NCBI GenBank assembly: GCA_964016885.1 | Contig: OZ024743.1 | Span: forward strand, 239,754,001-239,818,000 | DNA from: Eledone cirrhosa | Taxonomy: Eukaryota | Reading direction: 5' to 3' | DNA length: 64,000 nt | Shown: in pieces, positions 28,060 to 28,360 of the stretch | Layout of the letters: every line of letters begins with the position of its first letter | Numbering within the stretch: the first letter of the stretch is position 1 | Program-made: the position numbers and the translations under genes | Notes under the pieces: model-generated | What the model was told of the DNA's origin: nothing | Database searches by the model: none | What the model saw: the letters and a program-made list of their open reading frames with translations, nothing else

Positions 28060-28360
28060 TAACATAGGAATTGTGGTAAGGAACCAGATGGACCATACTT
28101 AGGGTAGTAGAGTGGGACATACGAAAAAGTATGACCCCGACGGCAGAGCTCAAGCCGTCTCGACGGCTATTTCTGGACTAAATTAGAATTTTTAGCCTGG
28201 TGAATAAGTAGCCGAACTTTTCAAGGGGGTACTTCCCATATAAGGAAGTACCCCCTTGAAAAGCTCAGCTATTTATTCAACAGGCTAAAAATTCTAATTT
28301 AGTCCAGAAATAGCCGTCGAAACGGCTTGAGCTCAGCCGTCGGGGTCATACTTCTTCCTA
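28060..28360. mobile_element. pLTR family A palindrome with full HHR 28252-28345 (+) and a mutated copy (-)
   Basis: cccc-TTGAAAA-G..ctattt...aaatagccgtC-GAAA-CGGC ttgagctca GCCG-TC-gggg. Centre near 28240. Confidence 0.8.

What the first reader, a model, noticed from the sequence alone, without database searches (positions are those of the whole stretch)
28252..28345. Natural U3-A8 hammerhead core that standard CUGANGA searches would miss
Seen: family A has the core TTGAAAA (TTGACAA at 5777-5870) with intact helices I-III, GAAA and a GUC site. Family L (53646-53681) independently has TTGAAAA. Known: positions 3 and 8 form a tertiary Watson-Crick pair, and a C3-G8 to U3-A8 swap can retain activity. 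The compensatory double change argues for selection on catalysis.
Basis: partly seen in the sequence, partly recalled or inferred. Interest (0 to 1): 0.7.

Follow-up and report, generated by a model that had tools for sequence, protein, structure and literature searches.

The report
Penelope hammerhead that outlived its pair
This is a damaged copy of a predicted self-cutting RNA at the end of an abundant jumping gene; its swapped U-A core pair is already published, but sister subfamilies multiplied to roughly 1,800 copies with that pair mismatched, so the cutting is likely weak and not strictly needed for jumping.

Summary
The motif is real: a type I hammerhead with a UUGAAAA core at 28252-28345. 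It is one arm of a 300-bp fold-back remnant of a Hydra-clade Penelope-like retroelement inserted in (TA)n. U3-A8 is the family state (620 of 638 pattern matches, none C3-G8), so decay is refuted. Family L (5,281 matches) belongs to a different, Neptune-type element, so its U3-A8 core is separate. Natural U3-A8 cores are already in print, including about 1,300 in Schistosoma Penelope elements. The inference "compensatory double change, hence selection on catalysis" is only partly supported. In this lineage A8 is fixed while position 3 changes. About 1,800 matches carry an unpaired C3·A8 core, in subfamilies that lie between two U3-A8 groups on the ORF tree. The 13 C3-G8 copies equal the neutral expectation. 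Copy ends lie 17 or 97 nt past the predicted cut, so templates were uncut or re-joined. The rest of the core is conserved across subfamilies, so the ribozyme is likely weak and useful, not essential. This window copy is predicted to misfold. Cleavage is untested. Earlier scan notes reached similar conclusions on other DNA of this genome.

The parts
28062..28358 (.). Fold-back remnant of a Hydra-clade Penelope-like element: two inverted 3' ends joined at about 28240, between (TA)n tracts
   Evidence: family context
28245..28354 (+). Type I hammerhead motif, right arm, including the distal extension of helix I (28245-28250 with 28349-28354)
28252..28255 (+). Helix I 5' strand; pairs with 28342-28345
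28256..28262 (+). Core box U3 U4 G5 A6 A7 A8 A9
28263..28318 (+). 56-nt helix II domain: G10.1-C11.1, internal loop, 9-bp helix (one mismatch in this copy), inner 7-bp hairpin
28319..28341 (+). GAAA box, helix III with near-palindromic loop, and GUC with predicted cut after C17 at 28341
28342..28358 (+). Helix I 3' strand and short terminus ending 17 nt after the predicted cut, at the (TA)n
28062..28237 (-). Left arm: same motif with core TTGAAAA at 28218-28224 but GAGA for GAAA (28158-28161), then the long terminus with an internal deletion
5684..6771 (-). 5'-truncated copy of the same element: end of the endonuclease ORF (6599-6751), 3' UTR, hammerhead with core TTGACAA at 5860-5866, long terminus
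53636..53780 (.). Family L fold-back remnant of a Neptune-type Penelope-like element; minimal hammerheads with cores TTGAAAA (53672-53678, minus) and TTGAAAG (53737-53743, plus)

Best explanation
The stretch is a type I hammerhead motif in the terminal repeat of a Hydra-clade Penelope-like retrotransposon, and it likely works as a weak, non-essential self-cleaving element whose 3-8 core pair has changed in single steps, through an unpaired C3·A8 state that still multiplied. Shown: the fold, the link to the element (motif, then 5' leader, 717-aa RT-GIY-YIG ORF, 3' UTR, motif again), the copy numbers of each core state, and the tree order A(U3-A8) - C1, B1, B2 (C3·A8) - B3, D (U3-A8). Inferred: under any rooting of that tree, and barring recombination, at least one C3-to-U3 change restored the pair from a C3·A8 state. 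Also inferred: a C3-G8 ancestor, because the published Hydra hammerheads have it. Inferred: integrated copies were reverse-transcribed from RNA that was uncut or re-joined at the predicted site, because their ends lie 17 or about 97 nt beyond it. Inferred: cleavage trims or unit-sizes a fraction of read-through or tandem transcripts, giving mild selection on the fold. This window copy is predicted to misfold and is likely inert.
For: Family state: 620 of 638 U3-A8; 8 changed at position 3 only, 10 at position 8 only, none at both. Wider lineage: 5,337 U3-A8 matches in one background. 1,996 matches in a second background, of which 64 of the first 100 listed are C3·A8, 36 U3-A8 and 0 have G8. 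516 C3 matches in the first background, 99 of the first 100 with A8. 13 C3-G8 in all. The neutral A-to-G rate is 0.71% per site, which predicts about 12.7 C3-G8 from about 1,780 C3·A8. G makes up 11 of 20 non-A8 variants on C3 and 21 of 53 on U3 (Fisher p 0.29). ORF tree of 35 of 51 copies: A clade support 85, B2+B3+D 100, B3+D 100. The UTR tree shows the same order for A, C1 and B, with C3-G8 copies scattered (102 of 155 copies). Across ten subfamilies 1 of 19 core or stem columns of the 3' half varies (and keeps a G-U pair), against 52 of 136 other columns, p 0.004. Ends: 111 of 314 arms near +17 to +20, 127 near +97 to +104, 2 at the cut. Starts: 70 of 119 truncated arms begin 26-45 nt before the cut, 3 at 0 to +4. 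Tandem units with motif, leader and ATG: L198 (C3·A8), L216, L219.
Against: No cleavage data. That C3·A8 cripples cleavage is recalled from the hammerhead literature; the three papers I tried to read on it are not held. The root is unresolved: the AU test rejects none of 8 placements, and subfamily ages overlap (A1 3.4%, C1 3.6%, B2 3.0%; only D2 at 0.9% is clearly younger). Two changes at position 3 could be neutral: C-to-T is the commonest substitution (2.3%) and free position 7 changed at least three times. C3·A8 subfamilies might have been cut in trans by U3-A8 partners of similar age. Patterns fixed U4, G5, A6, A9 and G10.1, so subfamilies altered there were invisible, and subfamily columns are not independent. 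Counts are motif matches (often two arms per insertion); the 1,780 figure extrapolates from 100 listed rows. B3 is a single copy in the ORF tree.
Confidence: 0.68

Rival explanations
1. Cleavage is needed, and the C3·A8 subfamilies were rescued: by a wobble C·A pair held by the long helix II and extended helix I, by pairing with U3-A8 transcripts through the palindromic helix III loop, or by A-to-I editing of A8 to give a C3-I8 pair.
For: Strong conservation of the rest of the core in C3·A8 subfamilies as well. Near-palindromic helix III loop; PMC4209133 describes dimer action for such motifs. Perreault et al. suggest peripheral contacts offset variant cores. C3·A8 and U3-A8 subfamilies overlap in age.
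Against: Copies carry sequence on both sides of the cut, and almost none start or end at it. There is no excess of G8 on the C3 background, so edited RNAs were not written back into DNA at a detectable rate.
Confidence: 0.15
2. The motif no longer cleaves in this lineage. The fold is kept as a signal for the reverse transcriptase or endonuclease, or as part of the promoter or transcript start, and position 3 drifts neutrally.
For: Both termini and the truncation hot spot lie in or beside the motif. The unpaired state amplified. Craig et al. raise that hammerheads may merely parasitize these elements. The hammerhead fold is not dominant in any of the 7 copies folded (probability 1e-4 to 0.046).
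Against: The invariant columns are the catalytic ones (G12, A13, A14, A15.1-U16.1, C17, C11.1), while position 7 and the loops vary. About three quarters of matches, the youngest subfamily, and the intact 717-aa ORF carry the paired state. Family L and a third motif also have U3 with A8.
Confidence: 0.12
3. One reading: a C3-G8 family changed to U3-A8 under strict selection for catalysis, with single changes removed.
For: Within family A in the narrow sense, singles are rare (18 of 638). All 26 Hydra rows of Craig's File S2 have C3-G8 (found with a canonical descriptor, so biased).
Against: Whole subfamilies have C3·A8. No C3-G8 subfamily was found in the lineage. The rare singles match neutral post-insertion rates.
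Confidence: 0.05

Closest known systems
U3-A8 minimal hammerheads of Cercyon Penelope-like elements, Schistosoma mansoni (Cervera and De la Pena 2014, PMC4209133; parts 1-2 of 4 read, supplements not seen)
   Same: Type I motif in the terminal repeat of a Penelope-like element; U3-A8 instead of C3-G8, missed by the standard descriptor; over a thousand dispersed copies, often as opposite-strand pairs; palindromic helix III region. Family L fits this closely.
   Different: Family A has a 56-nt branched helix II domain, a 5-bp helix III and a distal helix I extension. It sits in a Hydra-clade element and has amplified C3·A8 sister subfamilies, which the parts I read do not report.
Hydra clade of Penelope-like elements (Craig et al. 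2021, PMC8557442; passages, section 11, supplement part 2 of 59 and word searches)
   Same: C-terminal GIY-YIG, RW-basic motif, DKT, CxCx5C linker, CxxC and CxH around E and N, no CCHH, (TA)n targets, hammerhead near the 3' end, inverted and tandem copies.
   Different: All 26 listed Hydra hammerhead rows have C3-G8 and short helix II loops. This family was not found in the supplement by DNA or peptide words. Its unit is 3.1-3.6 kb against generally under 3 kb, and it has RWR for RWK.
Natural core variants of hammerheads (Perreault et al. 2011, PMC3088659; section 8 and passages read)
   Same: States that C3 and G8 pair, covary to U3-A8 in several natural examples, and were shown earlier to be active in vitro.
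   Different: The passages I read describe no amplified C3·A8 state; their pipeline rejected hits with core mutations.
Metazoan non-LTR retrozymes (PMC7229834 passages; bioRxiv 10.64898/2026.07.22.740005 part 1 of 5)
   Same: Type I hammerheads in animal repeats related to Penelope-like elements.
   Different: Retrozymes are short non-coding tandem units; this motif belongs to a coding element, and the window copy is an inverted remnant.

Membership tests
Type I hammerhead ribozyme | Core boxes NUGANNA and GAAA in type I order with A15.1-U16.1 and an H17 site | tested here: met
   28256-28262, 28319-28322, GUC at 28339-28341
Type I hammerhead ribozyme | Watson-Crick pair between positions 3 and 8 | tested here: met
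   U3-A8 in this copy and in 620 of 638 family A matches; not met in about 1,780 sister matches
Type I hammerhead ribozyme | Three helices around the core with G10.1-C11.1 | tested here: met
   Constrained fold lies 0.8 kcal/mol above the minimum for a typical copy and 4.8 for the window copy
Type I hammerhead ribozyme | Match to an Rfam hammerhead model | tested here: not met
   No hammerhead among 16 matches at E<=10; probably due to the long helix II and variant core (inference)
Type I hammerhead ribozyme | Loop 1 - loop 2 tertiary contacts | not tested
   An internal loop in helix I exists; its partner in helix II was not identified
Type I hammerhead ribozyme | Site-specific self-cleavage after position 17 | not testable with these tools
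   Needs an assay; genomic ends and starts do not mark the site
Hydra-clade Penelope-like element (family A) | Single ORF, RT followed by C-terminal GIY-YIG | tested here: met
   717-aa ORF in L216 with YRDD and a C-terminal NVIY...YIG. Pfam gives only a weak GIY-YIG hit on one piece and none on the whole ORF. Atlas neighbours carry GIY-YIG and RVT_1. Weak match to the family L protein, E 3e-5
Hydra-clade Penelope-like element (family A) | RWK, DKT, CxCx5C linker, CxxC and CxH, no CCHH | tested here: met
   RWR, SDKTG, CNCPDRSIC, CNLCSEE...N...CKH in L216, read against section 11 of PMC8557442; RWR in place of RWK
Hydra-clade Penelope-like element (family A) | Insertion in (TA)n; tandem and inverted copies forming pseudo-LTRs | tested here: met
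Hydra-clade Penelope-like element (family A) | Placement within Hydra on an RT tree with published families | not tested
   Published sequences were not loaded; the assignment rests on motifs
Neptune-type Penelope-like element (family L) | RT, CX2-5CxxC linker, GIY-YIG with CCHH | tested here: met
   ORFs in L070, L072, L074; Pfam RVT_1 E 1e-6 and GIY-YIG E 5e-7; 3' UTRs homologous up to the motif. Neptune versus Nematis was not tested by tree
Non-LTR retrozyme | Short non-coding head-to-tail units, each with a hammerhead | tested here: not met
   Units are 3.1-3.6 kb and coding; remnants are inverted

The most novel reading that the evidence does not exclude
This lineage preserves, as subfamily strata of thousands of copies, a step-by-step compensatory substitution inside a ribozyme active site. 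The pair broke to C3·A8, the element kept transposing, and selection restored the pair by C3U once or twice. The same U3-A8 end state stands in a deeply separate Penelope clade in the same genome. That would show that hammerhead cleavage is dispensable yet favoured in these elements, and it supplies matched natural alleles to measure by how much.
Probability: 0.45. Interest if true: 0.6.

Novelty: new variant of a known kind. Interest (0 to 1): 0.42.

Why it matters
The role of hammerheads in Penelope-like elements is stated as unclear in PMC8557442 and as tentative in PMC4209133. The U3-A8 core itself adds little, as it is in print. What adds something is a lineage with otherwise near-identical motifs in paired and unpaired states, each amplified to thousands of matches, with a young subfamily that has an intact ORF. 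This allows a direct comparison of cleavage rate with transposition success. It also means that CUGANGA-based surveys, and the Rfam search run here, miss more than 13,000 motif matches (about 7,850 in this lineage plus 5,281 in family L) in this one genome.

Tried and rejected
Independent decay from C3-G8: rejected. A true C3-G8 sister subfamily: suspected (11 of the 87 rows had the family's helix II), then rejected because those copies scatter among C3·A8 copies and their number equals the neutral expectation. A-to-I rescue written back into DNA: no excess of G8 on C3; editing at RNA level is untested. Rooting with four distant Hydra outgroups: best root at C1 with support 34, AU test uninformative. 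Dating by divergence did not order A1, C1 and B. Copies starting at the cut site: 3 of 119 truncated arms. RNA evidence: no RNA holder listed; no reads were laid. Rfam over the whole window returned mostly microRNA-type matches on simple repeats and hairpins in the 150 of 554 rows shown. The repeat finder was swamped by (TA)n. PDB sequence search gave no hit. No ORF was tied to the third U3-A8 motif in L152/L233. Literature searches returned no paper on an amplified C3·A8 hammerhead; the library lacks most subscription papers, and the supplements of PMC4209133 and PMC3088659 were not seen and may bear on this.

Full report
Observation. The window at 28252-28345 holds all parts of a type I hammerhead: helix I (28252-28255 with 28342-28345), core UUGAAAA (28256-28262), a 56-nt helix II domain, GAAA (28319-28322), a 5-bp helix III with a near-palindromic loop and a GUC site ending at 28341. 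The copy at 5777-5870 (minus) has UUGACAA, and family L at 53646-53681 (minus) has UUGAAAA. A post hoc descriptor finds 2 such motifs in the window against a mean of 0.005 in 200 shuffles. Rfam has no hammerhead match on the stretch. This copy is not pristine: changes at the base of helix II lower the predicted share of the hammerhead fold to 2e-4, against 0.046 for a typical copy. It is the right arm of a fold-back remnant, 28062-28358, between (TA)n tracts; the left arm has GAGA for GAAA.

What it belongs to. [quoted passage not shown] Tandem copies show the unit: motif, terminus, about 185 nt from the predicted cut to the ATG, ORF, UTR, motif; L216 has an intact 717-aa ORF. The protein has RWR, DKT, CxCx5C, CxxC and CxH and lacks CCHH, and the element sits in (TA)n. 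These are the features given for the Hydra clade in section 11 of PMC8557442. Pfam and PDB give little; Atlas neighbours carry GIY-YIG and RVT_1. Family L has 5,281 pattern matches, 99 of the first 100 with U3-A8. It leads to a different ORF with a CX4CxxC linker and CCHH, only 22% identical over 295 columns to the family A protein. The two U3-A8 cores therefore sit in deeply separate clades.

Frequency of the pair. In family A in the narrow sense, 638 matches divide into 620 U3-A8, 8 changed at position 3 only, 10 at position 8 only, and none C3-G8. Decay from C3-G8 is excluded. Dropping the helix I anchor exposed a wider lineage with the same helices II and III. It has 5,337 U3-A8 matches in one background. 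It has 516 C3 matches in that background, 99 of the first 100 with A8. It has 1,996 matches in a second background, where 64 of the first 100 are C3·A8 and 36 are U3-A8. By extrapolation that is about 6,050 U3-A8 and about 1,780 C3·A8 motif matches, often two per insertion. Only 13 are C3-G8. With a measured neutral A-to-G rate of 0.71%, about 12.7 are expected from decay of C3·A8 copies. They scatter on the tree, and G is no more frequent among non-A8 variants on C3 than on U3 (11 of 20 against 21 of 53).

History. A tree of 800 ORF columns from 35 of 51 copies gives a ladder: A1/A2 (U3-A8), then C1, B1, B2 (C3·A8), then B3, D3, D1, D2 (U3-A8), with support 85 for A and 100 for B3+D. The UTR tree agrees for A, C1 and B (102 of 155 copies kept; the D subfamilies fell out by the filter). 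State follows subfamily in 200 copies, for example A1 47 of 47 U3-A8, C1 45 of 50 C3·A8 and B2 23 of 24 C3·A8 (these loci came from state-specific searches, so the minority counts are not frequencies). The root is open: the best placement is C1 with support 34, no placement is rejected, and ages overlap except for the young D2. Whichever root is right, and barring recombination, the unpaired state was amplified and at least one C3-to-U3 change restored the pair. A C3-G8 ancestor is inferred from the 26 Hydra rows of Craig's File S2, a biased list.

Is the fold under selection? Across ten subfamilies, 1 of 19 core or stem columns in the 3' half varies (a C-to-U that keeps a G-U pair), against 52 of 136 loop, inner helix II and flank columns (p 0.004). 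The genome search patterns did not fix that half; copies were collected with an anchor there that allowed six mismatches, and subfamilies are not independent. Position 7, the free core position, takes all four letters. So the catalytic residues are kept, but the 3-8 pair was not enforced.

Do copies show cleavage? Of 314 arms, 111 end about 17-20 nt and 127 about 97-104 nt after the predicted cut, and 2 end at it. Of 377 arms, 258 span the whole motif (enriched by my sampling). Of the 119 truncated ones, 70 begin 26-45 nt before the cut, in the 3' strand of helix II, and 3 begin at 0 to +4. The templates thus crossed the scissile bond, uncut or re-joined. The start cluster may be a transcript start or a stall of the reverse transcriptase at the helix; fold-back centres blur it by several bases.

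Mechanism. Most likely a weak hammerhead that cuts a fraction of read-through or tandem transcripts, perhaps as a dimer through the helix III loop. It would be useful enough to keep the core, yet not required for insertion. G8 contributes its 2'-OH as general acid (PMC6155905 passage), which A8 also has; the pair with position 3 positions it (recalled). That a lone G8A strongly lowers activity is recalled and was not read here.

Known versus new. Natural U3-A8 covariation is reported in PMC3088659 section 8. About 1,300 U3-A8 motifs of Cercyon elements are reported in PMC4209133, which also notes that the standard descriptor missed them and that metazoan motifs cleave poorly in vitro. The headline claim is therefore known. 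Not found in the papers and searches listed: a Hydra hammerhead with U3-A8, a 56-nt helix II, or amplified C3·A8 subfamilies. I reached the C3·A8 result before opening earlier scan notes. Several of them, unchecked, report the same on other DNA of this genome; they are not independent support. Two prompted the start-site test. The host is called octopus-type in those notes; I did not test this.

Verdict. A real feature, a new variant of a known kind, interest 0.42. Its value lies in matched natural alleles for testing whether Penelope-like elements need their ribozyme.

Noticed in passing
window 3715+, 4697+, 51147+, 3512-, 41267-; 28791+, 62648+, 28617-, 2039-; 21510+; 34228+, 34101- (first base of the core): Several other repeat families with canonical C3-G8 hammerhead-like cores and palindromic helix III; the window is dense in such motifs.
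   Followed up: no
L152:250-310 and L233 (two inverted copies): A third U3-A8 hammerhead motif with a short, well-paired helix II and 4-bp helix I; no ORF tied to it.
   Followed up: partly
window 23063+ and 21725-; 46699- against 63255-: Other motifs with a C3·A8 core box: an inverted pair with a short helix II, and one copy whose relative at 63255 has C3-G8.
   Followed up: no
window 2670-2816, 3020-3213, 38150-38315, 45103-45295, 62951-63140: Five more fold-back remnants of the family A lineage; 8 of their arms begin 35-45 nt before the predicted cut and lack the core box.
   Followed up: partly
L216:3083-5236: Intact 717-aa ORF in a tandem copy of the youngest subfamily (about 0.9% divergence), a candidate for an active element.
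   Followed up: partly
window 53737-53743 and loci L040-L069: A9G variant of the family L core in 27 of 46 arms picked by likeness to this copy, but in 0 of the first 100 genome-wide matches.
   Followed up: partly
window about 42819-44700: Tandem array with a 27-bp period, about 95% identical units.
   Followed up: no
window 54847-54950 and 57086-57205: Near-perfect hairpins, the second with a (TA)n centre; probably further fold-back remnants.
   Followed up: no
L077:4012-4893: A transposase-like ORF (Tc1/mariner resemblance, recalled) inserted in the 3' UTR of a family A copy.
   Followed up: no
L195, L220, L230, L231, L236, L237, L238: Pieces of several more distant Hydra-like elements (30-55% protein identity) sit beside or inside family A and L copies, in line with shared (TA)n targeting.
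   Followed up: partly
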